64,000 nt of DNA, taken from positions 900,023 through 964,022 of the forward strand of contig JBMORU010000001.1 of NCBI GenBank assembly GCA_049322215.1. Reading direction: 5' to 3'. The notes under the pieces are model-generated. The model did not search any database. It saw nothing but the letters and a program-made list of their open reading frames with translations, and had not been told where the DNA came from. The DNA comes from Patescibacteria group bacterium. Its GTDB lineage: Bacteria > Patescibacteriota > WWE3 > UBA101185 > UBA10185. This document shows, piece after piece, positions 5,897 to 28,749 of this stretch; within the stretch, counting starts at the first letter, position 1; every line of letters starts with the position of its first letter. The position numbers and the translations under genes are program-made.

Positions 5897-5973
5897 CGGG
5901 GTATAGCTCAGTTGGCTAGAGTGCGCGCTTTGGGAGCGTGAGGTCGCAGGTTCGAGTCCTGCTACCCCGACCA
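5897..5973 (+). tRNA. tRNA-Pro (anticodon TGG)
   Basis: The acceptor stem CGGGGTA/TACCCCG closes with ACCA. The anticodon stem-loop reads CGCGC-TTTGGGA-GCGTG. The T-arm reads GGTTCGAGTCC. Confidence 0.8.
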
Positions 5974-10257: not shown

Positions 10258-12531
10258 TTATAACTTAGTAGACTTTAACCTTAATGCATTCATAACAACC
10301 GATATGCTTGAAAATGCCATGGCACCACTAGCTAACATTGGGTTTAATAATATGCCTAAAATAGGGTATAAAGCCCCCATAGCAACAGGAATTAAAATAA
10401 TATTGTACCCAAACGCCCAACCTAGATTTTGTTTTATATTCCTCATAGTTGCTTTAGAAAGTTTAATAGCTTTTGGTACCAAAGAAATATCTCCTCGCAA
10501 TAGTGTTATGCCCGCCGATTCTATTGCTACATCAGTACCACTTCCCATGGCAACGCCTATGTCTGCAGTAGCCAAGGCAGGGGCATCGTTAATGCCATCG
10601 CCAACCATAGCAACCACACTTTTTGTATTTCGTGTTTGCAATTCTTTAACCTTTGCAGCCTTATCTTCAGGGAAAACCTCTGCGAATACTTCATCAATAC
10701 CTAACTCTTTAGCTATTGCTTCTGCTGTTACTTTATTATCTCCAGTTATCATTACTGACGTAATTCCCATATCTTTAAGCACTTGAATTGTTTCCTTGGA
10801 AGATTTTTTAATTGAATCTGAAATACCAAGAAGCGCTACATTTTTTTTATCTACACTTACAAAAGAAACTGTTTGTGCTTTCTTACGAAGGCCTTCTGAT
10901 AAATTTGTTAAATCAGCACACTTCATTACCCCCTGTTGATCCATTAGTTTTTGTGTGCCTATTAGTACTTCATGACCATTTACATAAGCTTTTACACCAA
11001 GGCCAGACATGTCTTCAAAGCGTTCCGCCTCATAAACTTTATTGTTCTTTAAGTGGTTTACAACAGCTTCTGCTAAAGGATGATGTGATTTCTTTTCAAT
11101 TGAAAGAATTAACGAAGATATGTAAGCTTTTATATCAATCTCTTCAGGAATTTCCCAATTCAAACTACTTACAACCTCCTCAAGATTATTCATAAACGCA
11201 AATGTCTGCACCTCGGGTTCACCTTTTGTTAAAGTTCCTGTTTTATCGAAAACTACATAATTCACTTTATTTGCTACTTCCAAGCTCTCAGCATTTTTTA
11301 TCAATATACCGTTTTGAGCACCCTTACCAGTACCCACCATAATAGAGGTAGGGGTAGCAAGTCCTAAAGCGCAGGGACACGCAATAATTAATACGGCAAT
11401 AAGGTTAACCAAAGCTAAAATAAACGAAGGTTGAGGTCCAAAATTAAACCATATTAAGAACGTAACAATTGCAAGCATTAAAACTACAGGAACAAAATAA
11501 GAAGATACTGTATCTGCCAACTTTTGTATTGGTGCGCGAGATCCTTGCGCCTGTTTTACCATTTCGATTATTTGAGATAGCATTGTTTCGCTCCCAACTT
11601 TTGTTGCTTTCATTTCAAAAGAGCCACTTTTATTTATAGTCGCACCTATAACTGTATTTTCTACTACTTTTCTAACCGGCATACTTTCGCCAGTAACCAT
11701 GCTTTCATCTACAGCGGATTCTCCTTTAGTTATTACACCATCTACAGGAATTTTTTCTCCAGGTTTAACAATTAATATATCTCCAACAACGATTTGGTCT
11801 ACGGGAATTTCTAGCTCTTCCCCATCTCTTAATACTCGTGCTGTTTTAGCCTGCAAGCCAAGTAGTTTTTTAATTGCTTCCGAGGTTTGCCCTTTTGCCC
11901 TCATTTCCAAAAACTTACCAAGCAAAATCAAGGTAATAATAGTTGCGGAAGTTTCAAAATATACATGTGGTTCTATTCCAAAGTTTAAAAGTTGTGTCTC
12001 AAACAAAACCACAATTACAGAATAAAAATAGGCGACAGAAGTACCAATTGCAATCAAGGTATCCATGTTTGCTGTACGATTTTTAAGACCAGACCATGTA
12101 CTTTTGTAATACTGAGCTCCTACCCAAAATTGCACGGGTGTAGATAAAATCCACATTATCCAATAGTTTTTTAATATAGCAGGAGCAAATGGAATCATTG
12201 CACCAAAAAGCAAGAAGAATGTAAAAAAGCTACTCCAAACAAGTTTTGTTTTTACCTCCTTTACTTCTTTTGCCTTTTCTTTTTCGACTAAATCTTCTTG
12301 AGATTCGTTTTCCTGTCCAATTACTGCTTTGTAGCCCACATCCTCAACTGCTTTTGCAAAATCTTCTGTTTTGCAACTATCCTCATGCTCTACAGTTGCT
12401 TGTTCATTTGCATAATTCACGTGGGCAGATTTAACTCCGGGCAAATTTTCTAGACTCCTGCCAACATTTATTGCACAACTTGCACAATGCATACCTGAAA
12501 CATGAAATGTTGTTTTTTTAATATTACTCAT
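10258..12531 (-). CDS. copA: Copper-translocating P1B-type ATPase
   Basis: An N-terminal HMA domain carries GMHCASCA. The TM metal site CPC ([10 protein letters not shown]) is present. The phosphorylation motif DKTGTLT and the hinge GDGINDAP are present. The start is set at MSNIKK, which has an AGGAG RBS and an ATGA overlap with the upstream gene. Confidence 0.9.
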
Positions 12532-12899
12532 AAATCTGCTCCTGACTCTACAACCTTTATTTTTCCGTGAAACATGTTCATTCCACATGAAATTTCATAT
12601 TCTCCAACTTCTGCAGGGTTAATTACGATATTAGTAGTTTTGTTTAGTCCCAAGTGCTCTCTAATATTAAAATCTGGAATTACAACTTCGTCTAAACAAG
12701 AACTTGCATCTTTTCTATAAAATTTTAAGGTTACTGGCTTACCTTTTTTGACTTTGATTACATTTGGTTTATAGCCACCTTCTACAGTAATAGTTATCTC
12801 GTTTGTAACTTCTACGGCTTTGCTTTCTTTTTTCATAAAAAAGAACCAGTAAGTAAAAATTATTAATAGTATTCCTAATAAATTAATTAGTATTGTCAT
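12528..12899 (-). CDS. Cupredoxin-like small copper-binding protein (membrane-anchored)
   Basis: 123 aa with an N-terminal TM. The C-terminal motif [16 protein letters not shown] carries Cys/His/Met ligands, as in cupredoxin-fold domains. Its stop overlaps the copA start. Confidence 0.5.
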
Positions 12900-13034: not shown

Positions 13035-13472
13035 TTATAGTGCCCACTCGAATTTAAGAACTTCACCTTCTATTTCAGTTATAGTGAGAAAAATTGTCGT
13101 TGCTTGTGGATTCATTGTAGAAAATTGAAGTTCTCCACTTAAGTGATGTCCTCCGCGATCACCACTCCAAGACACCGGTTGATATTCATTTCCCTCATTG
13201 TCCGTTAAAGTAATTATTTTCTTCAGGTCAAAATCTAATTCTACAGAATGAGTATTGAGAGTAATCTCAAAATTGGAAGTACTTAGTGGGGTAACTTGAA
13301 CGTTTACAGCACCCATTGTTCCACTTTTAGAATCAAGAGGGTTTGTGTCAGATACGGATGTTGTAGGTTTTTCTGCTTTTGGGTTTGAAATAAATACCCA
13401 ACCTAAAAACACTAATAGTAATATTGTTATTGGAATAATAAACTTTTCAAATTTTTTCATAATTAGCTCCAT
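13035..13472 (-). CDS. Secreted hypothetical protein in the copper operon
   Basis: 145 aa with an N-terminal TM or signal. Predicted beta-rich. A GGHH motif is present. Confidence 0.35.
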   Translation of the reverse strand: MELIMKKFEKFIIPITILLLVFLGWVFISNPKAEKPTTSVSDTNPLDSKSGTMGAVNVQVTPLSTSNFEITLNTHSVELDFDLKKIITLTDNEGNEYQPVSWSGDRGGHHLSGELQFSTMNPQATTIFLTITEIEGEVLKFEWAL

Positions 13473-13944
13473 ATAAGTGTTTGAGCATAAAACCTATCCC
13501 AAACAAATTAAAAACTATACCCACAGCAAAAAGTTCTTTTGTGTAAGCTCCTAAAAAAGATGCGAGCGCAGAGGCACCTAAGATAGGTAAAACATCTACT
13601 GCATGATGCGCACAACAAGCAACCATTGTTGCAGTACTGGTGGCACCGGTAACTTTAGATACTTTATTAGTTTGCATTGTTTCCATGTGTTTAATTTGCA
13701 ATAACTTAGATAATGCAAGCTGCATTCCGAAACCTAAAGAAAGTGCCAATATCCAAGGACGGTAATAATTAAACTGAGAAATTGCAGTTTCCATACTACC
13801 TGTAGTGATTCGCATTAAAATGAGATATATGGCAAGTAAAAAGGTAGTTCCAAATACAAAATATGTAATTAGTTTAAAGAGCTTATTAGTGTTTTCCACA
13901 ACAATCTCCATTTTCTTCTTTGTTTTCCAACTCTTTAGTTTCAA
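13447..13944 (-). CDS. Small polytopic membrane protein with a CC..HH motif
   Basis: The segment TATMVACCAHHAVDV lies in a TM or loop region. The gene overlaps both neighbours. Confidence 0.35.
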   Translation of the reverse strand: MKLKSWKTKKKMEIVVENTNKLFKLITYFVFGTTFLLAIYLILMRITTGSMETAISQFNYYRPWILALSLGFGMQLALSKLLQIKHMETMQTNKVSKVTGATSTATMVACCAHHAVDVLPILGASALASFLGAYTKELFAVGIVFNLFGIGFMLKHLYGANYEKI

Positions 13945-14812
13945 CCTCTACTGTAGTATTTGTATCTCTTGTAGATAGAGCATGTTTAATAATTACAGTC
14001 AAAAATAAAACAATAGCCACAAGAAATATTGCATTAGCACCGGGAACAGAATTTAGCTTTAGTGCTAAACTATTTATATTCTCAGAAAAGCCCTGCGCCA
14101 TTTCTGCCATCGAAAAATCGGTTGCAAGGGCTAAATACACAATTACAAATCCCATTATTGTAAAAATGAAAAACGATATTACATTTCCCATTATTATTGG
14201 ATAGGTTTTAGAAAGTATTTTTATTTCACTCAATTTTCTCTTAAAAAACTTCATACCTAAAACTTTTTTCGTATCTAAAAAGTATGCGCCTATATACAGG
14301 GGAGTAACCATTCCCAAAACATACACAAAACCTATAAGCAATGCTTGCCACAAACTAGGGGACATAATGCTAAGGGTCAAAACTCCAACCAGTACAGGGG
14401 CACAACATGCGCTAGTTATACCTGAGAAAACACCTAAAGTGAAAATAGAAACAACATCCGTACCTTGTTTGCCCGACTGGTTAATATGTGGCATTGGAAG
14501 TTTAAGTCCTAATAAAGAGGCCAATCCAACCAGAATCATAAAAGTACCACCAAGCAAATAAATTTGTTCATGATACCTAAAAACTGCAAGAGAAATTAGT
14601 TTTGAGCCCAAAACTGCAGGAATCATTACAACAAATATGCCTAAGGAATAAACTAGCGTCATGAGTAAAACTCTTTTTCGCTCCTTAAAGACTGAGCCTA
14701 AATATGCAGGAAGCAAATACGACACACAGCATGGGGCAAATAAGGCTACCATTCCTGCCAAAAACGCTGCAATTATTGACGTTTGAAAAAGTATTGCTTC
14801 ATTCATAATCAA
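13886..14812 (-). CDS. CcdA/DsbD-like transmembrane thiol-disulfide or metal transfer protein
   Basis: Polytopic. Paired cysteines sit in TM segments at FAPCCVSYLLPAYLG and TSACCAPVLVG, reminiscent of the DsbD/CcdA SPCxxP core. The C-terminus ends in the tail GDCCGKH. Confidence 0.4.
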   Translation of the reverse strand: MIMNEAILFQTSIIAAFLAGMVALFAPCCVSYLLPAYLGSVFKERKRVLLMTLVYSLGIFVVMIPAVLGSKLISLAVFRYHEQIYLLGGTFMILVGLASLLGLKLPMPHINQSGKQGTDVVSIFTLGVFSGITSACCAPVLVGVLTLSIMSPSLWQALLIGFVYVLGMVTPLYIGAYFLDTKKVLGMKFFKRKLSEIKILSKTYPIIMGNVISFFIFTIMGFVIVYLALATDFSMAEMAQGFSENINSLALKLNSVPGANAIFLVAIVLFLTVIIKHALSTRDTNTTVEVETKELENKEENGDCCGKH

Positions 14813-15828
14813 ACTCCGCAGCCGCCACCACCACCTGAACCTTGTACTGGTTTAACCTTTGCAAGCACTGATCTATATCCTGAACCGCTAGAAAACTCTG
14901 CACCTAAAACTTCTTTAGCTACTACAGCAGCCCATTCAAGGTTTCTTTCATCTTCCATATACTTTGCAATTGTTAAGTACGTATCGGGAAACCAAATAGA
15001 ATTTACCGCAAGAGCACTGTTGTAAATTTCATCTTCGGAGTACCCTTTAGCAACCATCATTTCTATTAGACCAAGCATAGCCATACCATGATTACAGTCT
15101 GCAAATGCCGTATGATTATTACAACAAGGTCTATATATGTTTGATGCTATTTGCTTAATCAAAACTTGTTGTTCGGGAGATAAATTAAACAAATTATGTT
15201 TACCATAGTGATCCATTGCACTACCTTGAGCTAAATTCCAACCTCCTGTAGCTGCAAGATTTTCCACTTGAGGATATTCTGAACGCATATCTTCTAGAAC
15301 TAAACTTTGTTGAGCCAAACCCAATGCCCATAGAGCATTTAACACAAATCTTGAATTCTCCCTAGTTAAAACAATGGCTTCATCGTAATTAGTTGTCAAA
15401 ATCTTAGTGTAGTCCGCATTTGCTTTGCTTAAAGGGCCACCTCTAAATAAACTTAAAAATTTTTGCTGGTCTATTACGCCTACGCTAACTAGCTTTGTAC
15501 CAACATCACCCCACTTAACAGGTAACACCACACCCCCCTCGGGAAGTACTGCAACCTCTAGCCTTTGTGCTTGTTTTTCTGGTGTATTTTCTAACTCCTC
15601 ATTTAATTTTTCCTTATAGGCAATAAGCGCATTTACTTGAGATCTATAAAAGTAATATTGAATAATCGCAACACCTAGTGTGGAGTTAAATGTTATTAAT
15701 AAAACAAGAGACATGGGGACACTCTTTTTCAAAAAGCTTTTCATTGAGGTGTTAAAACGTCTAGGCTTTGAAAAGTCACCGGAGTTCGAAGTTTCTAGTA
15801 CTTTTTCTTTCATAAAACTATCTTTCAA
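14809..15828 (-). CDS. Membrane-anchored Cys-containing hypothetical protein with a Gly-Cys C-terminal tail
   Basis: 339 aa. It contains RPCCNNHTAFADCNHG. The C-terminus reads GSGGGGGCGV. An ATGA overlap joins it to the downstream gene. Confidence 0.35.
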   Translation of the reverse strand: MKDSFMKEKVLETSNSGDFSKPRRFNTSMKSFLKKSVPMSLVLLITFNSTLGVAIIQYYFYRSQVNALIAYKEKLNEELENTPEKQAQRLEVAVLPEGGVVLPVKWGDVGTKLVSVGVIDQQKFLSLFRGGPLSKANADYTKILTTNYDEAIVLTRENSRFVLNALWALGLAQQSLVLEDMRSEYPQVENLAATGGWNLAQGSAMDHYGKHNLFNLSPEQQVLIKQIASNIYRPCCNNHTAFADCNHGMAMLGLIEMMVAKGYSEDEIYNSALAVNSIWFPDTYLTIAKYMEDERNLEWAAVVAKEVLGAEFSSGSGYRSVLAKVKPVQGSGGGGGCGV

Positions 15829-15829
15829 A

Positions 15830-16342
15830 TTAATCTACTTCTTTGCTAACTACGTTTCCTGTGAGCCTAAACTCAACCGTACGATTACTTGGATCATTGG
15901 TATCAAATGAAACTAAACGAGTAATTGGCCCGGTGCCTTGAGGTCCATGAAACAGGGGATCAAATACAACCTTTACTTCGGCAGTGGAATCTGGCGCTAA
16001 TGTGCCTTTCCAACTAGATGTAGCATGCATACCAAAAGCAGGACTTTGTACTCCAGCAATAGTTACTTGAGCTTCTGTACACATACAAGAGGTCTTGAAA
16101 TTCGATATATCAAGGTTTGAAGTACCAGCATTCTTAATTAGAAAAGTCTTTTCTACATTGCCGCCCTCAATGTCTATTTCACCCCAATCGTGCAACTTGG
16201 CACCTAACACCTCAACTTTTGCGTCCCCACTGCTTTCTAAAACCGGAGGCTGTGTTTTAGTTGCAAAAATAGTGCCTAAAATTAATATAAAAACTGTAGA
16301 AATACCTATTAAGCTTATTAAGATTTTGTTTTCCTTAGTCAT
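15830..16342 (-). CDS. DUF1573-like secreted or membrane-anchored protein (paralog A)
   Basis: HDWGEI...KTFLIKNAGTSNLDISNFKTSCMCTEAQV fits the DUF1573 pattern of a beta-sandwich with a CxC motif. A second conserved block reads FDPLFHGPQGTG. Confidence 0.5.
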   Translation of the reverse strand: MTKENKILISLIGISTVFILILGTIFATKTQPPVLESSGDAKVEVLGAKLHDWGEIDIEGGNVEKTFLIKNAGTSNLDISNFKTSCMCTEAQVTIAGVQSPAFGMHATSSWKGTLAPDSTAEVKVVFDPLFHGPQGTGPITRLVSFDTNDPSNRTVEFRLTGNVVSKEVD

Positions 16343-16359
16343 TTAGCAAACCTTTCTAC

Positions 16360-16848
16360 TCAATCTAAAATTTTTACATAAATATCAAATTGCATTTCTG
16401 GTGAATTAGCATCATTAGTTTTCACAAATACCGAACGTGTTAGCTCACCTTGAGGTTCTTCATGAAAGTTTGGATCAAAATAAACTGTTAGTTGAGCCTT
16501 TTCATTAAACCCGAGTATTGTTTTATCTACTTCTGCAGACGTACACCCACAAGATGTAGAAATATCACCAATCTCTAGTTGTTCTTTACCGTGGTTTTCA
16601 ATTTCAAAAGTGGTACTAACAACACCGTCATTTCTAGATATAGAACCAAAATCATGCGTATTATTATGTGTTTCTGCTAAGGGTTTATTGTAATTAATTT
16701 CACTGTGATGAACTCCCATCATTCCTACACCCATATAGTTATTAAACCTGTTTATGCCTAGTAAATAAGATAGAGTGGCAACATTCATTAAAACTAGAAT
16801 TGCAATTACTCCATAAAGTACTTTTTTCTCCGTCATATCCGTTTGCAT
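16360..16848 (-). CDS. DUF1573-like secreted or membrane-anchored protein (paralog B)
   Basis: HDFGSISRNDGVVSTTFEIENHGKEQLEIGDISTSCGCTSAEV, with a second block YFDPNFHEEPQGE. It is clearly paralogous to 15830..16342. Confidence 0.5.
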   Translation of the reverse strand: MQTDMTEKKVLYGVIAILVLMNVATLSYLLGINRFNNYMGVGMMGVHHSEINYNKPLAETHNNTHDFGSISRNDGVVSTTFEIENHGKEQLEIGDISTSCGCTSAEVDKTILGFNEKAQLTVYFDPNFHEEPQGELTRSVFVKTNDANSPEMQFDIYVKILD

Positions 16849-17115
16849 TTAATTCTTTCTATAAAGAGAATAAATTTTCACTAATTCATCTATAGCTTTA
16901 TCTTCTTCACCATTTTTCATTTGTTCGACCACACAACCGTTTATATGCTCTTCTAAAATTTGTTTGTCTATCTTTTGTAATGATTTTTGAATGGATAAAG
17001 ACTGGGTAAGTACATCTACACAGTATTTACCTTCTTCTATCATTTTTGAGAGACCCTCAATTTGACCAGCAATGATTTTTAATTTGTGTGAAGTTGATTT
17101 TCTATCGTATTCCAT
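16849..17115 (-). CDS. csoR: CsoR/RcnR-family metal-sensing transcriptional repressor
   Basis: 88 aa. IAGQIEGLSKMIEEGKYCVDVLTQ...EEHINGCVV carries the conserved Cys-His-Cys metal ligands of the CsoR family. It is the first gene of the operon. Confidence 0.8.
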   Translation of the reverse strand: MEYDRKSTSHKLKIIAGQIEGLSKMIEEGKYCVDVLTQSLSIQKSLQKIDKQILEEHINGCVVEQMKNGEEDKAIDELVKIYSLYRKN

Positions 17116-17121: not shown

Positions 17122-17146
17122 AATACTACTCCCCCCTATTGGTATT
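17122..17146. promoter_or_regulatory. Candidate CsoR operator in the divergent promoter region
   Basis: AATACTACTCCCCCCTATTGGTATT has ATAC/GTAT arms flanking a C6 tract. It resembles B. subtilis CsoR operators of the form TACCC..GGGGGTA. It lies between csoR and the divergent HMA gene. Confidence 0.4.
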
Positions 17147-17228
17147 AGTCAAGTTCCTTAACAAAACAACGTTATCAAAATGCGAATTGAACTATATAAT
17201 TATTAAACTAACAAGTTAAAATTTAAAA

Positions 17229-18602
17229 ATGCAAAAAAAGGATAAAAAGAGCAATAAAACAAAAAAAAGATATTTTGTACAAGGCATGCACTGCAGTACC
17301 TGTGAAATACTTATTAAACAAGATATTGCAAATCTTCAGGGTATAAATAAAGCCACTGTTTCTTTAAGTAAGTCACATGTAGTTATTCATGCTAATGAAA
17401 CAACTAACATTCCTTCAAGAAACACTTTAAATAAGTTATTTAAAGAATTAGGTTACACTTTTCACGAACAAAAGCCCAAAGAACAAAAACTTAGTAGGGA
17501 AGAGTCTTTAAAAATTATAGGAATAGCACTACTATTTATCATCGCTTTTTACACACTAGAAAAATCCGGAATATTTATGAAATATTCTATAACTGCTCAA
17601 TCATCCTTAGGAGCATACTTTGTTTTTGGATTAGCTGCCGGAATTTCAAGCTGCGCAGCACTTGTTGGGGGGATTTTACTGTCACTTTCGAAAAACTGGA
17701 ATAATATGTATGCAAACAATAAAAGAAAGAGTGTTCTACCTTTTATTTACTTTAACTCATCAAGAATACTAACCTTTGCGCTACTTGGAGGAATATTAGG
17801 GTACCTTGGAAGCTTTTTACAATTATCTATAACATTAACCTCAATTTTAACTTTACTTATTGCATTACTAATGCTGGCATTAGGATTTCAAATGATTGGG
17901 ATTAAGTGGTTTAATAAGTTTAGTTTTAACTTTGTTGGAAACAATAAATACCTAAACAAAAACTCAGAACTAAACGGCAAATACATACCCTTAATAGTAG
18001 GCGCCTTAACTTTTTTTGTTCCATGTGGATTTACCTTAATTGCTCAAACTAACACATTAAATGCAGGTAGCTTTTACAAGGGTATGCTTCAATTAACTGC
18101 GTTTGCACTAGGAACCCTACCAATATTGGCATTGATTAGTTTTTCGAGTGTTAAATTTTACTCAAACCCGAAGTTTGCAAAAAAATTTAGTTTGTTCTCA
18201 GGCGTAATCATAGTGTTTTTTGCACTTTACACAATAAACTCACAGCTAAATGTATTAGGTTTAACAAGCCTTAACGATATTTCTTTTTCAAAAAGCGTAA
18301 CTAGCAAAAGCGACATACAAATAAATAATGCTAATTACCAGGTAATACAACTTGAAGCTATTGGGTTTGAATATTATCCAAAAGAAGTAACAATTCAGTC
18401 GGGAGTGAAAACGCAGTGGTCGATATACGATAATGGGTCAGTGGGTTGTGCTAAAGCAGTATATGCTAGGGGACTATACCCAGATGTCATTTACTTAAAA
18501 CCTGGCATGAACACTGTTGAATTTGTTGCGCCCAAACCAGGTACATATAAAATTTCTTGTTCAATGGGAATGGTACCTCCAGTAACTGTTAGGGTTATAT
18601 AG
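17229..18602 (+). CDS. HMA-domain / polytopic membrane / C-terminal cupredoxin-like fusion protein
   Basis: The N-terminal region reads GMHCSTCEILIK, a CxxC HMA domain. The middle has about 8 TM helices with TM cysteines at SSC and VPCGF. The C-terminus reads YKISCSMGMVPPVTV, homologous to the C-terminus of 12528..12899. Confidence 0.55.
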   Translation: MQKKDKKSNKTKKRYFVQGMHCSTCEILIKQDIANLQGINKATVSLSKSHVVIHANETTNIPSRNTLNKLFKELGYTFHEQKPKEQKLSREESLKIIGIALLFIIAFYTLEKSGIFMKYSITAQSSLGAYFVFGLAAGISSCAALVGGILLSLSKNWNNMYANNKRKSVLPFIYFNSSRILTFALLGGILGYLGSFLQLSITLTSILTLLIALLMLALGFQMIGIKWFNKFSFNFVGNNKYLNKNSELNGKYIPLIVGALTFFVPCGFTLIAQTNTLNAGSFYKGMLQLTAFALGTLPILALISFSSVKFYSNPKFAKKFSLFSGVIIVFFALYTINSQLNVLGLTSLNDISFSKSVTSKSDIQINNANYQVIQLEAIGFEYYPKEVTIQSGVKTQWSIYDNGSVGCAKAVYARGLYPDVIYLKPGMNTVEFVAPKPGTYKISCSMGMVPPVTVRVI

Positions 18603-18653: not shown

Positions 18654-20504
18654 TTGAGCATGGAAGAATTTGAAAGCACACCTTTAGAGCAAAATTCTAC
18701 ACAAAACACTAAAACACCAATACCTGAAACAAAACATGCGTATATAGATAAAATAATATTGATAGCTATATTTGTTATTTTGGTATTTACTACCTACTTT
18801 GCACTTTTTGTTAAACAACCAAAGAGGCAAATACCAGTAAACCAAAGTATTTCGCCAGTAATAGAAAAACCTAGCCAAGAAATAAACAAACCTGAAGAAA
18901 TAATTGTAATTTCGGCAGAAGCGTTAGCTTTTCACAAACCCCAATTAATTAAGCAATTTGAAGACGACGAAGCCACATACGAATTTTATAAAGTAGGCAA
19001 TGTACTTGAAGGTGACTACAAGGGTTATGAAATAGTTAAAGGAAAGTTTCAAACAACGGCAGGACCTTGCAAAGGTCCCGGATGTGGAAAGCCTTTTTTT
19101 ATTCGTTATTTAAAAAAAGATAGAGACTTAATACATTTAGCATTAAACTCTGAGTTAACCGAAATTAAACGATGGGGAATAGATCCTACTAAAATAGCCG
19201 ATTGGAACTTTACACTTAACAACGAACTTACTTTAGAACCTTTTAATCTTCCAAAGGAAACTAATTATAATGGGGGCACAATAAAATATGTTAAAACAGA
19301 AGAAGGTCTACCAAACAATAACACTTATATCGTATACACTGATCCAATTTTAGGCCAAGTATACACAACAAAAGAAAGTGTTAGCCCCCAAGAGCCATTT
19401 TACAGTGGAGAAGAAACAGCTTACGAAACTACAGGAAAATGGGGAGATGGGGTAGATAGCTGCTATAACGAGGAATGCTTTTTTTCAAATGGACTTTTTG
19501 TATTTCACCCTGACGAAACATTTTCAATTTACACATATAAACCTGTAGAATTTTCATACAAAATATTGGCTAGTGAAAAAACTTACAATATAACAGACTA
19601 CGAAGGGGAGTATTACTTTAAAACTAGAAATGGATGTAGTGGAAATGACGCTGATTATATAAGTATTGCAAATCCCTCAAACGTATCAATAAGCGATTTA
19701 AAAGAAGTTGGTAGTTTTAGTCAAGGCGATAAGAGACTTTTATTTTTTAACAATACCGAGCACCCATACCTAACTCATTTTTACGAAAAATACAAACTAT
19801 ATTTCCCTGAACTTGAGCAAATGCGCATAGGAGAAGAAAAAAACCTTACGTTTAAAACTTTTGAAGATTTTTCAGCCGCTTATCCTGTTTTATTCTTTGA
19901 AGACGACTTCGGTAGGTTAGTAAGACTTACGCACAAAGAATTTGTAATACCTTACGCATGTGAACCAATAATTTACTTATACCCTGAACAAGAAACAGAA
20001 ATTAGCATAAAACTTGATACAAATTTGGTTGAATTGGTTGGTTCTAAACCTGAATACAATACGGGCTGGGCTGTTACAGCATTTCCATCAGGAAAAGTTA
20101 TTGATCAAAACAGTAATACTTACCCCTATATTTTTTGGGAAGGAACTTTAAAATATTTACCTGAGAAAAATGATGGGTTTGTGGTTAAAAAAGAAAACGT
20201 GGAAATAAGCTTTAAAAAAACTCTTCCAAAACTGGGTTTAAATGAGCAAGAAACAATAGACTTTATTAAGGCTTGGACACCAAAGCTTAAAATAGCGCCT
20301 TACTACTTTATAACTTTTCATAATACAAAAACAGTTAATACCTATGCTCCGCTAAATGTACAACCAACGCCTACTACAGTGATTAGGATTTTAATGGAAT
20401 ATAAGCCTCTAAATGAATATACAGAGGTGGCACCCTTTAAATACGACAAAACACCCCAAAGAAACGGCTTTACACTTGTAGAGTGGGGCGGTATAGAGCG
20501 CTAA
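18654..20504 (+). CDS. Large membrane-anchored extracytoplasmic hypothetical protein
   Basis: 616 aa. One N-terminal TM is followed by a large soluble domain. Confidence 0.4.
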   Translation: MSMEEFESTPLEQNSTQNTKTPIPETKHAYIDKIILIAIFVILVFTTYFALFVKQPKRQIPVNQSISPVIEKPSQEINKPEEIIVISAEALAFHKPQLIKQFEDDEATYEFYKVGNVLEGDYKGYEIVKGKFQTTAGPCKGPGCGKPFFIRYLKKDRDLIHLALNSELTEIKRWGIDPTKIADWNFTLNNELTLEPFNLPKETNYNGGTIKYVKTEEGLPNNNTYIVYTDPILGQVYTTKESVSPQEPFYSGEETAYETTGKWGDGVDSCYNEECFFSNGLFVFHPDETFSIYTYKPVEFSYKILASEKTYNITDYEGEYYFKTRNGCSGNDADYISIANPSNVSISDLKEVGSFSQGDKRLLFFNNTEHPYLTHFYEKYKLYFPELEQMRIGEEKNLTFKTFEDFSAAYPVLFFEDDFGRLVRLTHKEFVIPYACEPIIYLYPEQETEISIKLDTNLVELVGSKPEYNTGWAVTAFPSGKVIDQNSNTYPYIFWEGTLKYLPEKNDGFVVKKENVEISFKKTLPKLGLNEQETIDFIKAWTPKLKIAPYYFITFHNTKTVNTYAPLNVQPTPTTVIRILMEYKPLNEYTEVAPFKYDKTPQRNGFTLVEWGGIER

Positions 20505-24935: not shown

Positions 24936-26027
24936 ATGAAAAAGAAGTATTTTCTACTTTTAGTATTATCATTTGGCACCTTAGCAATTGTAATACTTTT
25001 AATTCCACAGTTTGTTAAACAAAAAAACTATATAGAACGTGCTCAAAAAAAATACGAGGAAATCGAGCAAACACCTTTACAAAACCCAACAGTAGATACA
25101 ATACCCTTAAACAAAAAAGTCTACCTATTAATATATAATCCAAAAATAAACGACCAGTACACAAATGAGTATTTTGGTTGGAATGACCCAGAAGAAATTA
25201 CGAATGAAGTTATCGCCTTTTTCAAAAATGTTTCTGAAGGCTATTTAAATTACGAAATAGTTCAAAAAAAGGTTGTAGAGGAATTTCCTGCAAAAGAAGA
25301 CGGCTTTGTATATACATTTGAAAACTATATTGAATGTGTAAATAGCAATGGGGAAAAATGCCATGATCCCGATATAGCCGACTACGTAAAAATATTAGAT
25401 GCGAACAACATTTGTGAAATGTTAAATAACGATGAGATTGACGAACTATGGCTTTGGGGAGGCCCTTGGTTTGGATACTGGGAATCAAATTTAGCAGGAA
25501 GATATTCGTTTTGGTATAACTCTAACCCTACACACTTTAACACCTGTAAAACACCTTTACCAATTATGGGTTTCAACTACGAAAGAACAAAAAACGAAGC
25601 TATACACAATTTTGGTCATAGAGCAGAGAGTACTTTAAAAAGAGTTTTTCAGTCGTGGGATGCAGAAAACACGCATGGATGGAATAGATTTGCACTACTT
25701 TCAAGGAATAATAATGGCCAAGGGGGTTGTGGAAACACACATATTACAGTAAATGGTACCGAAGATTACATTTACACAAATAAAGATAATGTAATGTCTA
25801 ATTGTGAAGAGTTTAAAGATTATCCCAATATAGAAAATACTTACAAAATGGTTAATTGCAATGACTGGGGCTGTGATGAGTTTGAATACTATACTTACTG
25901 GTGGAACAATATTCCAAGAAACACAGGAATAAATAAAGATGCTTTTACAGGCCAAGAAGTACTAAATAACTGGTGGAAATACATTTTTGATTTGAGCTGG
26001 ACATACAATAAAACAACTACTTATTAA
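24936..26027 (+). CDS. Secreted Cys-containing hypothetical protein
   Basis: N-terminal TM or signal. Multiple Cys residues. W/Y/N-rich. Confidence 0.4.
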   Translation: MKKKYFLLLVLSFGTLAIVILLIPQFVKQKNYIERAQKKYEEIEQTPLQNPTVDTIPLNKKVYLLIYNPKINDQYTNEYFGWNDPEEITNEVIAFFKNVSEGYLNYEIVQKKVVEEFPAKEDGFVYTFENYIECVNSNGEKCHDPDIADYVKILDANNICEMLNNDEIDELWLWGGPWFGYWESNLAGRYSFWYNSNPTHFNTCKTPLPIMGFNYERTKNEAIHNFGHRAESTLKRVFQSWDAENTHGWNRFALLSRNNNGQGGCGNTHITVNGTEDYIYTNKDNVMSNCEEFKDYPNIENTYKMVNCNDWGCDEFEYYTYWWNNIPRNTGINKDAFTGQEVLNNWWKYIFDLSWTYNKTTTY

Positions 26028-26090
26028 GCCCATAGTATGATATAATTTCGCAAATAAAACTTAACAAACACCTTATATAAGGAGAGACAA

Positions 26091-27608
26091 ATGAACGTAG
26101 TTTATTGGCAAATGGGAGCTTTGGTAGTAGTTATTTCTGCTGTCATAGGTCTTATTGCGAAATACGCATTGGATAAGTCAGAATCTGACTTGGAAATTAC
26201 CTGGACAGAGTATGCTATTGCTGTTGTGCTAATTTCTGTGGCTTTAGGCCCCTTTGCTGTTTGGCGAGGATCTGAAATTGCACGAAACAACCTTAAGTCG
26301 TTTAACGAAAACATCAACGCGGTAGTGACAGGTGTCAGCATTTCTCAAAAAACCTGCGAAAGAGATGGGGACTGTGTACACACCTATGACTGTGACCGCT
26401 ACAGATGTTCTTACTCATGCGATAGTGACAATGATGGGGACAGCGATGACACTTGCTATAAGTGGTGTTATCACAGTTGCCCATACTGTAGCGTGGAGTA
26501 TCAGCTGTTAATTCACACAAACACCGATGGTTGGTCTGGACGAAATCCGGTTATTGCTTCAAATATCATTCCTCCGGACGCGGATCAAAATTACCGCTGG
26601 CGTCAAAGTGAAGCCATTCCCCAAGGAATTCAAGATGCGTATGGGCGTTACCCGCAACAGTTTTTAGACGCCTTTTACAACCTGCAAAATGGCACCGAAG
26701 CACTACCATTTGTGTACCGGCGACAGTACAACAGTTACACGCTGGCTGCAAATGTTGATTCACCTGAAGAGTGGCAAGATGAAATTACATTGTTGCAACA
26801 GCACAAGCCCAATTTGATGCCAACACTGCAAACAACGGTAACAGGCAGCAACCAGGCGCACCGGGTTTACTTTGTAGGATTTACGCCAACGCCTGCGCAA
26901 GCGCAAGAATGGACAACCACCTTAAGCTATATCAACAGCCCGTTTGGTAACGACAGACAAGGCGACTTGCATGTAGTCATTATTAACAAGCAGGGTGTTG
27001 ATATGAGTTTGACAGATGCCCTAACCGCCATAAAGTACGACTGGCAAAACAGTGCAAAGTACGGCGATGACACCATGGCCAAAAATGCAGTATTGGTTGG
27101 TTTGGAAACTGACGACGGAGCAACAGTATTTCGTGCTGCAATGGTAACCGGCATGCCAGAAGAATTGTTTGATTTGCAGTATAACGATGATTTGCGTGCT
27201 GCAATAGCAAACGACTTAACAAATAAAGGGTTACCTCTTGACCCACAAGTTTTGTTTGGCCGTGCCACAATGCCTTTTACACCACAAACTGAGGAATGCA
27301 CAATTTTTAGCTGCTTTCGTGGTGTGGGGCCAGCGCAGCTTAGTGGGGGTGTTTTGACTGAGCGCTTGTTTGGTGTAACCAACCCGGAGTTGGCATTTCA
27401 GCGAATTAGCATGTCTGCCAAAGATCCAGAAGACGTAGGTCCCGGTTTTGTGGCACTTGATGAGCTAATTATTCCAACACCAAAACAGCAAACCTGGATC
27501 GTGATTTTATCAACGGTGTTTGCTTGCCTGGCTTGGGTTGCTACCGCACTGATAGGACAAAGGTATCGACCGTTTTACAACAGATATAGTAGATTTGGTA
27601 GGTACTAA
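26091..27608 (+). CDS. Membrane protein with an extracytoplasmic Cys-cluster (GC-elevated gene)
   Basis: Two N-terminal TM helices are followed by the Cys cluster CERDGDCVHTYDCDRYRCSYSCDSDNDGDSDDTCYKWCYHSCPYCSV, a large ectodomain and a C-terminal TM. GC is about 45-50% against about 33% background. Confidence 0.4.
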   Translation: MNVVYWQMGALVVVISAVIGLIAKYALDKSESDLEITWTEYAIAVVLISVALGPFAVWRGSEIARNNLKSFNENINAVVTGVSISQKTCERDGDCVHTYDCDRYRCSYSCDSDNDGDSDDTCYKWCYHSCPYCSVEYQLLIHTNTDGWSGRNPVIASNIIPPDADQNYRWRQSEAIPQGIQDAYGRYPQQFLDAFYNLQNGTEALPFVYRRQYNSYTLAANVDSPEEWQDEITLLQQHKPNLMPTLQTTVTGSNQAHRVYFVGFTPTPAQAQEWTTTLSYINSPFGNDRQGDLHVVIINKQGVDMSLTDALTAIKYDWQNSAKYGDDTMAKNAVLVGLETDDGATVFRAAMVTGMPEELFDLQYNDDLRAAIANDLTNKGLPLDPQVLFGRATMPFTPQTEECTIFSCFRGVGPAQLSGGVLTERLFGVTNPELAFQRISMSAKDPEDVGPGFVALDELIIPTPKQQTWIVILSTVFACLAWVATALIGQRYRPFYNRYSRFGRY

Positions 27609-27660
27609 ACCTAATGAGTCATTTCTTGAAGCAACAAACTTTAAGAAGTGACTCTTTTTT

Positions 27661-28749
27661 TTATTCATCTACACAAAGCAGTAAATCGTAGAATACAGAC
27701 TCGTTCGTGGGAGTTTGATTTGCATAAGTTGCTTTTACACTGATTTCATAAACTTTATTTGCGTTATATACGCGTGTCGTTTCCCAAGGAGCATTGGGTA
27801 TCAAAAACCAACCTTCTCCAGGGTTTAAACCACTATCAGGGTATATTCCTAATGTTTCATCAGCAGCCTCTTCAGTGGGACCCTCCATAATTACTGTAAA
27901 GCTTTCATGCTGTTGCGGAGGAACACCGCAGCTACCACCATCTGGGCATTGGTAACAAAGTGGGCCATCGGGACATTGTTCAGGATGCCCCTCGCCTGCG
28001 TAGCCTACAATATAAAGTCTGGAAGGTTCATCAAAAACTATTTCATAGGTATCGGTTGCAACCCCTTTAGTCACTACTAAGTCAGTTAAGCGTGTTAGTT
28101 CTTTTGTTCCAGAAGGACATGCAAGCACAGGGGGATCCCAAGCTTCACATAAACCACAATCACTAGAACACGAACTACAAGACTCACTTGCAGAACAATC
28201 TCCATCTCCACACACTGGGGCACAAGTACCACAATCTGCAGAACAGGTAGAGCAACTTTCACTACCATTGCAGTCTCCATCACCACAAATTGGAAGTGAT
28301 GTGCTTCCTCCCGAACATGAGTTTTCTATAGCAGCACAGCTTTCTTCATGCTCGAAAACTTCATTATCAATTGAACAAAAGCTTAAGCATCCCACGTCGA
28401 AACGAGTTGCATCGATAGCGTAACCATCTGGGGATCCAGCAACATAGCGATATGAATATAGGGCGCCTTCTGGGGTTCCATTTGGCCAATTAGATATTTG
28501 TGTGGCAACACCAGCTTCATCCATAATATTATCGTCACTATTTGTATCTTTCGGGTAATAACCCTCAATAATTCTAAAGTTATGTAAACCTTCTTCGAGT
28601 TTTTTTAAATTAGTTCTAACTACTGAATTTTTTGTGGCATCAACCTGACCCCGTCTGTTTATTACATTTACAACAACACCAGAAAGCGCAGCAATCATTG
28701 CCACTACAATTAAAACTTCAATTAAAGTAAATCCTTTTTTGTTAGTCAT
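27661..28749 (-). CDS. Type IV pilin-like protein with 2 tandem Cys-rich 24-aa modules
   Basis: The N-terminus MTNKKG|FTLIEVLIVVAMIAALSGVV is a class III prepilin signal with Glu+5. The middle carries 2x CGDGDCxxSESCSxCSxDCGxC. The C-terminal domain is shared with the next gene. Confidence 0.65.
   Translation of the reverse strand: MTNKKGFTLIEVLIVVAMIAALSGVVVNVINRRGQVDATKNSVVRTNLKKLEEGLHNFRIIEGYYPKDTNSDDNIMDEAGVATQISNWPNGTPEGALYSYRYVAGSPDGYAIDATRFDVGCLSFCSIDNEVFEHEESCAAIENSCSGGSTSLPICGDGDCNGSESCSTCSADCGTCAPVCGDGDCSASESCSSCSSDCGLCEAWDPPVLACPSGTKELTRLTDLVVTKGVATDTYEIVFDEPSRLYIVGYAGEGHPEQCPDGPLCYQCPDGGSCGVPPQQHESFTVIMEGPTEEAADETLGIYPDSGLNPGEGWFLIPNAPWETTRVYNANKVYEISVKATYANQTPTNESVFYDLLLCVDE
28144..28287 (-). 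repeat. Two in-frame 72-bp tandem repeats encoding Cys-rich modules
   Basis: Same module as 29213..29572, here in two copies. Confidence 0.65.

What the first reader, a model, noticed from the sequence alone, without database searches (positions are those of the whole stretch)
15830..16848. Tandem DUF1573-like paralogs (CxC motif) embedded in a copper operon
The two adjacent proteins share GxVxxxFxIxNxGxxxLxIxxxxTSC(G/M)CTxAxV and FDPxFHxxPQG blocks. The CGC/CMC motif and a conserved His could form a metal site. I know of no reported link between DUF1573 and copper. The placement between csoR and a CcdA-like gene suggests a periplasmic copper-binding or chaperone role for a domain of unknown function.
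Basis: partly seen in the sequence, partly recalled or inferred. Interest (0 to 1): 0.6.

Follow-up and report, generated by a model that had tools for sequence, protein, structure and literature searches.

The report
Copper-operon DUF1573 Cys-x-Cys protein pair
Two neighbouring membrane-anchored proteins of an uncharacterised family (DUF1573) sit inside a copper-controlled operon of a tiny 'candidate phyla' bacterium, and the same pairing recurs across many bacterial and archaeal lineages, which points to an undescribed cell-surface copper-handling module.

Summary
Window 16360-16848(-) and 15830-16342(-) encode two DUF1573 paralogs (Pfam E 3.6e-19 and 3.7e-11; 35% identical to each other). 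Each has an N-terminal membrane anchor, an Ig-like domain, an S-C-(G/M)-C-T turn and an FDPxFH loop. They are genes 2 and 3 of a nine-gene minus-strand operon. It starts with a CsoR carrying the full Cu(I) fingerprint and an operator-like box in its promoter, and it ends with a CupA-like cupredoxin and a Cu(I)-type CopA.

The link to copper is not local chance. The A/B pair recurs beside CsoR or ArsR-YHS regulators, P1B ATPases, CusBA, CcdA-like proteins and rhodanese in Patescibacteria, DPANN archaea, Desulfobacterota, Chloroflexota and a gammaproteobacterium. Copper markers occur in 22/46 loci of the 'CxC + D-x3-H' subtype and in 0/15 loci of DUF1573 lacking the His (p = 4e-4).

Invariant Cys, Cys, His (plus Met in type B) and Met/His-rich linkers favour an extracytoplasmic Cu(I) site. 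A DsbD-alpha/ScsB-like thiol relay is the main rival.

I found no published DUF1573-copper link in the library searched. I rate it a new variant of a known kind, interest about 0.6.

The parts
17123..17152 (-). Promoter of the operon with a CsoR-operator-like box (TTGACT-AATACCAATAGGGGGGAG-TAGTAT). The -10 element lies 7 nt before the csoR ATG, so the transcript is probably leaderless.
   Evidence: The promoter scan finds the -35 TTGACT and -10 TAGTAT with an 18-nt spacer; the sequence was read. Canonical ATACCCC-N3/4-GGGGTAT palindromes lie upstream of csoR in the related loci L007, L010, L011, L020, L021 and L026. That this palindrome type is the CsoR operator rests on my own knowledge of B. 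subtilis and Streptomyces CsoR sites; it was not tested here.
16849..17115 (-). csoR, a Cu(I)-sensing repressor of the CsoR/RcnR family
   Evidence: PF02583 E 1.5e-23. Y31, C32, H57, C61 and E77 match the spacing of M. tuberculosis CsoR Y35/C36/H61/C65/E81 (fingerprint from PMC4235346).
16360..16848 (-). DUF1573-A. It has an N-terminal TM anchor (residues 4-35), a Met/His-rich linker (NYMGVGMMGVHH), and an Ig-like domain (64-161) with S99-C100-G-C102-T103 and F124-D-P-N-F-H129.
   Evidence: Pfam. AF2 model pLDDT 90, with the TM helix, a disordered linker and a 7-strand sandwich. The PapD/ASH-like fold has as its top PDB hit 2qsv, a P. gingivalis protein of unknown function. Invariant residues are N85, G87, S99, C100, C102, D125 and R138; H129 is conserved in at least 90%.
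15830..16342 (-). DUF1573-B. It has an N-terminal TM anchor and an Ig-like domain with S85-C86-M-C88-T89. A type-specific insertion carries P-x-F-G-M105-H, followed by F127-D-P-L-F-H132-G-P.
   Evidence: Pfam. Across 29 homologs C86, C88, F103, M105, D128, P129, H132 and R142 are invariant. The middle residue of CxC is M, H, G, L or A.
14809..15828 (-). p339, a membrane-anchored, mostly helical protein. It has invariant R-P-C-C-x-N...F-x-D-C-N-H-G and a C-terminal GGGGCGV tail. It is the most constant neighbour of the DUF1573 pair in Patescibacteria.
   Evidence: No Pfam or NCBIfam hit. At least 3381 homologs, all unnamed or labelled 'hypothetical'. Invariant residues. AF2 pLDDT 87.5. No PDB fold match, best E 0.47. 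Adjacent to the pair in many loci.
13886..14812 (-). CcdA/DsbD-superfamily membrane protein with vicinal Cys pairs (A-P-C28-C29 and S-A-C136-C137-A-P) at the positions of the canonical redox cysteines. This copy also has a C-terminal D-C-C-G-K-H.
   Evidence: Weak NCBIfam DsbD/TsoB hits. In an alignment with a canonical CcdA (L002:3482-4237), C28 and C136 fall on the canonical Cys positions, and the CC pairs are conserved from Patescibacteria to gammaproteobacterial L069.
13447..13944 (-). p165, a small membrane protein with C110-C111-A-H-H in a hydrophobic segment
   Evidence: Homologs occur in 10 related loci. No family hit.
13035..13472 (-). p145, an anchored beta-rich protein (weak DUF5643 match) with N-T-H...G-H-H motifs. 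It is fused to a B-type DUF1573 in a Woesearchaeota homolog.
   Evidence: Pfam E 6.3e-06, below cutoff. The fusion is in L022:919-1788.
12528..12899 (-). CupA-like membrane-anchored cupredoxin with C68...C105-G-M-N-M
   Evidence: PF13473 Cupredoxin_1 E 5e-25. Cys and Met positions. The resemblance to the S. pneumoniae CupA CxMxM site rests on my own knowledge.
10258..12588 (-). CopA, a P1B-1 Cu(I)/Ag(I) exporting ATPase. The true start is probably M20, near 12531.
   Evidence: locates the motifs HMA GMHCASC, TM CPC, GYN, MAFSS and DKTGT. Their assignment to Cu(I) specificity is established P1B-ATPase knowledge.
17229..18602 (+). Divergently transcribed three-domain protein: HMA (MHCSTC), a DsbD_2 membrane domain (single Cys in two TM segments) and a cupredoxin_1 domain (C407...C444-S-M-G-M)
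   Evidence: Pfam. Seven hydrophobic segments. The arrangement is conserved opposite csoR in L004 and present in L025 and L069.

Best explanation
The two genes encode a matched pair (type A and type B) of membrane-anchored, outward-facing Ig-like proteins. They belong to a distinct DUF1573 subfamily, defined by S-C-x-C-T in the C-C' turn plus D-x3-H in the E-F loop. Type B adds an inserted loop with an invariant Met.

The pair is transcribed from a CsoR-repressed promoter together with CopA, a CupA-like chaperone and several Cys-rich membrane proteins, so it should be made when cytoplasmic Cu(I) rises.

The most likely function is to bind Cu(I) (and probably Ag(I)) on the outer face of the membrane, through the two thiolates plus His (and Met in B). 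The Met/His-rich linker of type A would act as a capture arm. The proteins would then hold or pass on copper expelled by CopA, or by CusBA in diderms. The CcdA-like protein, and rhodanese or DsbA-like partners in other genomes, would keep the thiols reduced or exchange with them.

Shown: family membership, paralogy, operon structure, the regulator fingerprint, conserved synteny and fusions, the invariant residues and the fold.

Inferred: outward topology, clustering of the ligands, copper binding and its direction of transfer.
For: (1) The operon is compact: csoR-A 0 nt, A-B 17 nt, B-p339 1 nt, and p339-CcdA overlap by 4 nt. No strong internal terminator was found.

(2) The CsoR has the Cu(I) fingerprint and sits behind an operator-like box.

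(3) Synteny is conserved.
- Saccharibacteria L002/L008 and WWE3 L004 repeat the whole operon.
- In Chisholmbacteria L005 the regulator is replaced by an ArsR-YHS protein, yet the pair stays with a P1B ATPase.
- Desulfopila L027 places the pair directly after a CusB(HMBD+CusF)-CusA pump.
- Gammaproteobacterial L069 has the order B-like, CC-type CcdA, two-component system, HMA-DsbD_2, CupA-like, CopA.
- Nanoarchaeota and Woesearchaeota loci carry CopA.

(4) Neighbour tallies within 2.5 kb. In 22 Patescibacteria loci: CsoR 10, P-type ATPase 5, DsbA-like 4. In 28 other loci: P-type ATPase 6, YHS 4, DsbD 4, HMA 3, cupredoxin_1 3. In 13 loci of DUF1573 without the His, none of these families appears among the 25 commonest neighbour families listed. 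Copper markers are in 22/46 against 0/15 loci, Fisher p = 4e-4.

(5) The ligand-like residues are invariant: C, C and D with H at 90% or more in A; C, C, M and H in B. The middle residue of CxC in B is often Met or His. L069 replaces the His with Met.

(6) Type-A linkers are 12.4% Met+His against 3.7% in the domain, with MMG...HMEEEH repeats.

(7) CxC is not needed for the fold: giant Ig-repeat relatives have none. In the model it lies in an exposed 4-residue turn between strands 91-98 and 103-107.

(8) Signal peptides or strongly positive N-tails in homologs indicate export.

(9) Single polypeptides joining B and A (P0081, L015, L020) show that the two types act together.
Against: - No metal-binding data exist, and no coordinates were available, so the Cys-Cys-His(-Met) geometry is untested.
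- For type B no model was made, and the Met-bearing insertion might lie at the opposite pole from CxC.
- The fold (PapD/ASH-like) has no known metal-binding member among the PDB hits.
- The recurrent partners rhodanese, DsbA-like thioredoxins and CcdA/DsbD, and the DUF1573-CcdA fusion (L030), are typical of thiol-redox relays rather than metallochaperones.
- A selenocysteine form (UGC) of DUF1573 is known (PMC9312934). This fits redox catalysis at least as well as metal binding.
- About half of the His-type loci show no copper gene in the DNA retrieved, although many of those contigs are short.
- Why a monoderm cell would retain exported copper at its surface is unclear.
Confidence: 0.5

Rival explanations
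1. Thiol-disulfide relay without direct copper binding. The CxC Ig-like domains would work like DsbD-alpha or the tandem Ig-like ScsB-alpha domains. They would take reducing equivalents from the CcdA-like membrane protein and pass them to envelope proteins whose cysteines have been mis-oxidised by copper. This would be an Scs-like copper-stress repair pathway.
For: - Peribacteria L030 encodes one polypeptide with a signal peptide, a DUF1573 domain (CGC, FDPNTH), a CxxC segment and a CcdA-like TM domain (NPC, FPC). This is the DsbD/ScsB domain order.
- CcdA/DsbD genes lie next to the pair in L002, L004, L005, L007, L042, L043 and L069.
- DsbA-like thioredoxins are neighbours, and a minimal CsoR-DUF1573A-DsbA-like operon exists.
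- Rhodanese fusions are frequent.
- Sec replaces the first Cys in known DUF1573 selenoproteins (PMC9312934, PMC13188914).
- DsbD-alpha is a single Ig-like fold, and ScsB-alpha is two in tandem with a CX3C site, in a system linking copper and envelope redox homeostasis (PMC10907172).
Against: - The invariant His, the invariant Met of type B, Met or His as the middle residue of CxC, and the Met/His-rich linkers have no obvious role in a pure electron relay.
- The CcdA-like partner is present in only about 6 distinct loci. CopA (18 loci) and p339 (about 17) are commoner.
- The operon's own CcdA-like protein has vicinal CC pairs, a feature I associate with soft-metal carriers such as MerT rather than electron carriers (MerT comparison from memory).
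- CxC differs from the CX5C and CX3C sites of DsbD-alpha and ScsB-alpha.
Confidence: 0.27
2. Sulfane-sulfur handling. Together with rhodanese, the CxC domains would carry persulfide sulfur outside the membrane. The purpose would be either to trap copper as a sulfide or to serve a CstR-like sulfide-stress response rather than a copper response.
For: Rhodanese with an intact CRSGxR loop is fused to type A, or encoded next to it, in Patescibacteria, DPANN archaea, Desulfobacterota and Omnitrophota. B-rhodanese-A and A/B-rhodanese triple fusions also exist. The CsoR family includes the persulfide sensor CstR (PMC4235346, PMC5016687).
Against: - The window's operon has no rhodanese at all.
- Its regulator has the His and the Tyr/Glu second shell typical of Cu(I)-CsoR.
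- The constant partners are CopA, CupA-like, HMA, YHS and CusBA.
- No sulfide-oxidising genes such as sqr or a persulfide dioxygenase were found in the neighbour tallies.
Confidence: 0.1
3. A passive structural or adhesive Ig-like surface protein that merely travels with the copper genes. In this reading the CxC is a family relic without a copper-related role.
For: DUF1573 is a large family (26,996 cluster representatives at E <= 1e-3). Its Bacteroidales, Verrucomicrobia and Planctomycete members keep SCGCT in non-metal contexts. The fold is that of PapD/ASH/HYDIN modules.
Against: The subfamily-specific invariant His and Met, the tight translational coupling inside a CsoR operon, the repeated independent association with different copper regulators and pumps in distant phyla, and the fusions to rhodanese, CcdA and p145 all argue for a functional role.
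Confidence: 0.05

Closest known systems
Scs (suppressor of copper sensitivity) system: ScsB (DsbD-like, with tandem Ig-like alpha domains carrying a CX3C site) plus ScsC/ScsD thioredoxin-fold partners
   Same: It is a copper-linked envelope system. It combines a DsbD-superfamily membrane protein with Ig-like Cys-motif modules and DsbA-like proteins. There are two Ig-like modules, and in L030 a module is fused to the membrane domain (PMC10907172).
   Different: - No sequence homology to ScsB-alpha was detected.
- The site is CxC plus His/Met, not CX3C.
- The modules are usually separate anchored proteins.
- The membrane partner has vicinal CC pairs.
- The operon is under CsoR together with CopA and occurs in monoderm Patescibacteria and in archaea. 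Scs is proteobacterial and, from my own recollection, under CpxR control; this was not checked here.
Extracytoplasmic copper chaperones and sequestering proteins with Cys/His/Met sites: Sco1 (CxxxC + His, kept reduced by TlpA and CcdA), PCuAC, CopC, CusF, and S. aureus CopL
   Same: These are small exported or anchored proteins, encoded with copper pumps, that bind Cu(I) through thiolate, imidazole or thioether ligands. Several are beta-sandwiches. The Cys2His ligand set and the dependence on envelope reducing power resemble Sco. This comparison rests on my own knowledge of these families.
   Different: The fold family is different (PapD/ASH-like DUF1573). The motif is CxC in a beta-turn. The proteins occur as an obligatory A/B pair. 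Copper binding is unproven. No hit to any of these families was obtained.
MerP/MerT mercury relay
   Same: An outward-facing thiol protein would hand a thiophilic metal to vicinal Cys-Cys pairs inside membrane helices. CcdA308 has SACCAP and p165 has ACCAHH, compared with MerT SACCLGP (MerT motif from memory).
   Different: There is no MerA or any reductase. The fold is Ig-like, not HMA. The direction of transport would make little sense for copper unless it is outward. Only HMA-domain similarity to Mer proteins was found, and that was in the 457-aa protein, not in DUF1573.
OS_HP2 / DUF1573 selenoproteins (NCBIfam NF041425; UGC motif)
   Same: It is the same Pfam family with the same position of the reactive residue: Sec replaces the first Cys of CGC.
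   Different: The window proteins score 53.8 and 39.2 bits against a cutoff of 100, and they use Cys. No Sec form of the A-type motif was found in the metagenome scan. No function is known for OS_HP2 either.

Membership tests
Pfam PF07610 DUF1573 | HMM score above the gathering threshold (26.1 bits) | tested here: met
   A scores 69.0 bits (E 3.6e-19) and B scores 43.3 bits (E 3.7e-11).
Pfam PF07610 DUF1573 | Ig-like (PapD/ASH/HYDIN-type) beta-sandwich with the S-C-G-C-T signature | tested here: met
   The AF2 model has pLDDT 90 and 7 strands. The top PDB hit is 2qsv, followed by PapD/ASH/HYDIN domains. SCGCT or SCMCT is present. That 2qsv is itself a DUF1573 protein is from memory and was not checked.
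NCBIfam NF041425 OS_HP2 (seleno)protein | Score of at least 100 bits, with Sec or Cys in the UGC/CGC motif | tested here: not met
   The scores are 53.8 and 39.2 bits, below the cutoff of 100. The proteins are related to this family but are not members.
'CxC + D-x3-H' copper-context subfamily of DUF1573 (defined here) | S-C-x-C-T followed 20-45 residues later by [FY]-D-x3-H. Type B also has an inserted P-x-F-G-M loop. The genes occur as an A/B pair or fusion. | tested here: met
   Invariant residues are given. 30 of 46 His-type loci carry at least 2 DUF1573 genes. Distant DUF1573 proteins lack the His.
CsoR-regulated copper efflux operon (csoR, chaperone, copA) | CsoR with the X-Y-Z Cys-His-Cys and A-B Tyr/Glu fingerprint | tested here: met
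   Y31, C32, H57, C61 and E77 are present, matching Mtb Y35/C36/H61/C65/E81 (PMC4235346).
CsoR-regulated copper efflux operon (csoR, chaperone, copA) | G/C-tract pseudo-palindromic operator in the promoter | tested here: inconclusive
   The window box ATACCAATAGGGGGGAGTAGTAT is imperfect. Clear ATACCCC-N3-GGGGTAT boxes occur in 6 related loci. Binding was not tested.
CsoR-regulated copper efflux operon (csoR, chaperone, copA) | P1B-1 ATPase motifs CPC, YN and MxxSS | tested here: met
DsbD-alpha / ScsB-alpha redox Ig-like domains | Ig-like fold with a redox-active Cys pair (CX5C or CX3C), covalently N-terminal to a DsbD TM domain | tested here: not met
   The fold class is Ig-like, but the motif is CxC. 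No sequence hit was found. In the window the domain is a separate protein. A fusion is seen only in L030.
DsbD-alpha / ScsB-alpha redox Ig-like domains | Receives electrons from the membrane domain and reduces envelope partners | not testable with these tools
   This needs biochemistry.
Known periplasmic Cu(I) chaperones (CusF, CopC, PCuAC, Sco) | Family HMM or fold, and the characteristic ligand motif | tested here: not met
   No Pfam, NCBIfam or PDB sequence hit to any of them was found. None appears among the top 50 structural matches.
Known periplasmic Cu(I) chaperones (CusF, CopC, PCuAC, Sco) | Demonstrated Cu(I) binding | not testable with these tools
   This needs ICP-MS or competition titrations.

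The most novel reading that the evidence does not exclude
The A/B DUF1573 pair may be the core of a previously unrecognised, phylogenetically very broad extracytoplasmic thiol-based copper/silver-handling machine. It would work together with rhodanese, the p339 protein, the CC-type CcdA-like protein, p165 and p145, and it occurs in Patescibacteria, DPANN archaea, Desulfobacterota, Chloroflexota and some Proteobacteria. The machine would form a Cu(I) capture-and-relay or detoxification route on the outer face of the membrane, working alongside CopA or CusBA. This would give a first function to a subfamily of a roughly 27,000-cluster domain family and to several Patescibacteria-wide orphan proteins.
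Probability: 0.35. Interest if true: 0.75.

Novelty: new variant of a known kind. Interest (0 to 1): 0.6.

Why it matters
DUF1573 is a large family without any assigned function. Here a well-delimited subfamily is tied, by conserved synteny, gene fusions and invariant Cys/His/Met residues, to copper regulators and copper pumps in many phyla. These include the ultra-small Patescibacteria and DPANN archaea, whose envelope biology is almost unknown.

If the proteins bind Cu(I), they add a new fold to the small set of extracytoplasmic copper chaperones. They would also show how organisms with minimal genomes invest nine genes in copper defence. If instead they are a redox relay, they would be a DsbD-alpha/ScsB-like module invented on a different Ig scaffold.

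Either way the finding gives directly testable hypotheses for at least five orphan proteins of one operon.

Tried and rejected
(1) PDB sequence search with A found nothing (best E 0.72).

(2) The fold search of A returned only generic PapD/ASH/HYDIN Ig domains and one unknown-function DUF1573-like structure, which gave no functional clue.

(3) Model coordinates are not exposed to the scripting sandbox. Only topology-based reasoning was possible.

(5) The p339 fold search against PDB found no match, so p339 did not clarify the mechanism.

(6) A metagenome scan for a selenocysteine (TGA) version of the A-type motif returned 12 hits. All lay in frames full of stop codons, so they are chance matches. 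A search of the fetched loci found none.

(7) I considered that the regulator might be a CstR-type persulfide sensor because of the rhodanese partners. I rejected this for the window because of the His/Tyr/Glu fingerprint and the absence of rhodanese.

(8) I considered mercury resistance because of the vicinal CC pairs and weak MerTP/MerP hits. I rejected it because those hits are to the HMA domain only, no MerA is present, and the pump has Cu(I) motifs.

(9) Literature searches for DUF1573, PF07610, PCYCGC and Patescibacteria+CsoR+copper found no paper on this association.
Full report
**1. The observation**

On the minus strand, 16360-16848 encodes a 162-aa protein (A) and 15830-16342 a 170-aa protein (B). 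Both match Pfam DUF1573 well above the gathering score: 69.0 bits (E 3.6e-19) and 43.3 bits (E 3.7e-11), against a cutoff of 26.1. Both also match the overlapping HYDIN/VesB Ig-like model.

A and B are 35% identical over the domain (BLASTP E 1e-15). The second is FDPNFHEEPQG in A and FDPLFHGPQG in B. Codon positions were verified.

**2. Local anatomy**

The two genes are numbers 2 and 3 of a compact nine-gene minus-strand operon:
- csoR (16849-17115)
- A
- B
- p339, an unannotated 339-aa protein (14809-15828)
- a CcdA/DsbD-superfamily membrane protein (13886-14812)
- p165, a small membrane protein with CCAHH (13447-13944)
- p145, an anchored beta-rich protein (13035-13472)
- a CupA-like cupredoxin with C...CxMxM (12528-12899)
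- CopA, with HMA, CPC, YN and MxxSS motifs (10258-12588)

Gaps between the first five genes range from 17 nt to a 4-nt overlap. The scan found no strong terminator inside the operon.

The CsoR carries Y31-C32-H57-C61-E77. This has the same spacing as the Cu(I) ligands Cys36/His61/Cys65 and the second-shell Tyr35/Glu81 of M. tuberculosis CsoR (PMC4235346).

The only sigma-70-like promoter directly upstream of csoR (17123-17152) holds ATACCAATAGGGGGGAGTAGTAT in its spacer. Clear ATACCCC-N3/4-GGGGTAT palindromes precede csoR in six related loci.

Divergently transcribed is a protein made of HMA, DsbD_2 and cupredoxin_1 domains (17229-18602).

**3. The proteins**

An AlphaFold2 model of A, built on 40 homologs, has mean pLDDT 90. 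It shows a TM helix at residues 4-35, a low-confidence linker at 36-57, and a seven-strand sandwich at 64-161.

S99-C100-G-C102 is the four-residue turn between strands 91-98 and 103-107. F124-D-P-N-F-H129 begins the loop between strands 117-124 and 134-144.

In an Ig-type sandwich the C-C' turn and the E-F loop lie at the same pole, and strand C pairs with strand F. Proximity of CxC and His is therefore plausible.

The best PDB matches are 2qsv (a P. gingivalis protein of unknown function) and PapD/ASH/HYDIN domains. No metalloprotein is among them.

Invariant residues:
- In A-type homologs N85, G87, S99, C100, C102, D125 and R138 are invariant, and H129 is conserved in at least 90%.
- In 29 B-type homologs C86, C88, F103, M105, D128, P129, H132 and R142 are invariant. 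The residue between the two Cys is Met, His, Gly, Leu or Ala.

Other features:
- A-type linkers are 12.4% Met+His, against 3.7% in the domain, with repeats such as MMG...HMEEEH.
- N-terminal tails are net positive and the far side of the anchor is neutral.
- Homologs in Desulfopila and Peribacteria have a K-rich N-tail or cleavable signal peptides. This indicates an outward-facing domain.
- Giant Ig-repeat relatives lack CxC altogether, so the pair of Cys is not a requirement of the fold.

**4. Context elsewhere**

The window matches a 1.1-Mb Patescibacteria contig (P0042, 100% identity).

- The complete operon recurs in Saccharibacteria (L002/L008, with an extra rhodanese) and in WWE3 (L004).
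- In Chisholmbacteria the regulator is an ArsR-YHS protein. The order is B, p339, a rhodanese-A fusion, a P1B ATPase and the CC-type CcdA.
- L007 has CsoR, rhodanese-A, B, DsbD_TM, an ATPase and p339.
- A minimal CsoR-A-DsbA-like operon also exists.

A scan of one genome per species with the A-type motif gave 69 loci. tblastn with the window's proteins found the following:
- CopA-type ATPases in 18 loci
- CsoR in 11 loci
- p339 in about 17 loci
- rhodanese in about 17 loci
- the CC-type CcdA in a few loci

The positive loci include Nanoarchaeota, Woesearchaeota, Caldilineaceae, Trueperaceae, Neomarinimicrobiota and a gammaproteobacterium. In that last locus (L069) the order is B-like, CC-CcdA, response regulator, kinase, HMA-DsbD_2, CupA-like and CopA.

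In Desulfopila the pair (B, then rhodanese-A) directly follows a CusB carrying HMBD and CusF domains, and a CusA-type RND pump.

Pfam tallies of neighbours within 2.5 kb:
- 22 Patescibacteria loci: CsoR 10, P-type ATPase 5, DsbA-like 4, DsbD 3+3, HMA 3, rhodanese 3.
- 28 other loci: P-type ATPase 6, YHS 4, DsbD_TM 4, HMA 3, cupredoxin_1 3, PCYCGC 3.
- 13 loci whose DUF1573 keeps SCGCT but lacks the D-x3-H motif (Bacteroidales, Verrucomicrobia, a Planctomycete): none of these among the 25 commonest families listed. Sugar epimerases, S8 peptidases and BACON domains appear instead.

Copper markers occur in 22/46 His-type loci and 0/15 control loci (Fisher p = 4e-4). The copper link therefore belongs to a subfamily, not to DUF1573 in general.

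**5. Fusions**

- B and A occur in one polypeptide (P0081, L015, L020).
- B-rhodanese-A and A/B-rhodanese triple fusions are common.
- A Woesearchaeota protein joins a p145-like domain to B.
- Several B types carry an N-terminal CxCCGxP...CxC[PG]MA domain.
- Peribacteria L030 joins a signal peptide, a DUF1573 domain, a CxxC segment and a CcdA-like TM domain.

These fusions tie the pair functionally to rhodanese, p145 and the CcdA-type membrane protein.

**6. Mechanism**

The best-supported reading is an outward-facing Cu(I)/Ag(I) site built from two thiolates and His (plus Met in B). It would be expressed under CsoR control together with the pump that delivers copper to that side of the membrane, and it would be serviced by thiol partners.

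The main rival is a DsbD-alpha/ScsB-alpha-like electron relay that repairs copper-induced thiol oxidation (PMC10907172). This is supported by the L030 fusion and by the DsbA, CcdA and rhodanese partners.

The two readings are not exclusive. From my own knowledge, Sco-type copper chaperones have a Cys2His site that must be kept reduced by a CcdA-fed pathway.

A sulfane-sulfur role and a passive structural role are less likely (see the rival explanations).

The vicinal Cys pairs of the CcdA-like protein (A-P-C-C and A-C-C-A-P, conserved as far as a gammaproteobacterium) and of p165 resemble soft-metal carriers such as MerT (from memory). They hint at a metal relay rather than a pure electron relay.

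**7. Novelty**

DUF1573 appears in only four papers of the searched library. Two list it as a selenoprotein family with a UGC motif, and none mentions copper.

NCBIfam places the window proteins near, but below the cutoff of, the OS_HP2 (seleno)protein model.

The family is large: 26,996 cluster representatives at E <= 1e-3 and 6,649 at E <= 1e-10.

I classify the finding as a new variant of a known kind, namely extracytoplasmic Cys/His/Met copper-handling or thiol-relay proteins encoded in copper operons. It is well supported at the level of association and unproven at the level of chemistry.

**8. Verdict**

- Confidence that the pair functions in copper homeostasis is about 0.85.
- Confidence that it does so by binding Cu(I) directly is about 0.5.
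- Interest is 0.6.

Noticed in passing
window 14809-15828 (-): p339 belongs to a very large Patescibacteria family (at least 3381 homologs) with no Pfam domain and no PDB fold match. It has invariant R-P-C-C-x-N..F-x-D-C-N-H-G and a flexible C-terminal GGGGCGV tail. It is the most constant neighbour of the DUF1573 pair. A few JGI records call it CcmH/NrfF, which looks spurious.
   Followed up: partly
window 13886-14812 (-): The CcdA/DsbD-superfamily protein has each canonical redox Cys doubled (APCC and SACCAP). This is conserved from Patescibacteria to a gammaproteobacterium (L069). The window copy adds a C-terminal DCCGKH. The motif resembles the vicinal Cys pairs of MerT/MerF, a comparison made from memory.
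   Followed up: partly
window 17229-18602 (+): This is a three-domain protein: HMA (MHCSTC), a DsbD_2 membrane domain, and a cupredoxin_1 domain with a CupA-like C...CSMGM. Seven hydrophobic segments would put HMA inside and the cupredoxin outside, which suggests a trans-membrane copper or electron relay. The gene is conserved opposite csoR in L004 and is present in L025 and L069.
   Followed up: partly
window 13035-13472 (-) and 13447-13944 (-): p145 is a weak DUF5643-like protein with NTH...GHH motifs, and p165 is a membrane protein with CCAHH. Both are conserved operon members. A p145-like domain is fused to a B-type DUF1573 in Woesearchaeota L022:919-1788.
   Followed up: partly
window 17123-17152 (-): The csoR promoter has the operator-like box inside the -35/-10 spacer, and the -10 lies 7 nt before the ATG. 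This implies a leaderless csoR transcript.
   Followed up: partly
window 18654-20504 (+): This 616-aa anchored protein has no family hit. A homolog (tblastn E 2e-34) lies about 6 kb from the DUF1573/CcdA/CopA cluster in the gammaproteobacterial locus L069, so it may belong to the same system.
   Followed up: no
L019:8110-8913, L009:1852-2664, L038:9641-10435, P0040: Some B-type DUF1573 proteins carry an about 130-aa N-terminal extension with a conserved F-x-C-x-C-C-G-x-P...C-x-C-[PG]-M-A Cys cluster and no Pfam hit. PCYCGC-family (PF13798, OS_HP4 selenoprotein family) genes are also neighbours in 3 non-Patescibacteria loci.
   Followed up: no
L027:4004-11038: Desulfopila sp. IMCC35008 has, in order, a CusB fused to HMBD and CusF domains, a CusA-type pump, a B-type DUF1573, a rhodanese-A-type DUF1573, and a 128-aa exported Gly/Met/His-rich protein (HGNNGNGHMMGYGNSGYGMMGGGMMGG).
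   Followed up: partly
L056, L058, L060 (Thermoplasmata): Here His-type DUF1573 genes sit in a different conserved context, with thioredoxin-reductase-like Pyr_redox genes and no copper genes detected. The subfamily may therefore have a second, redox-related setting in these archaea.
   Followed up: no
window 26001-30000: GC content rises to 0.42-0.44 against about 0.33-0.36 elsewhere, but Rfam finds no rRNA there. The window's only Rfam hits are five tRNAs (1142-1214, 1295-1379, 5897-5970, 43007-43088, 46189-46261).
   Followed up: no
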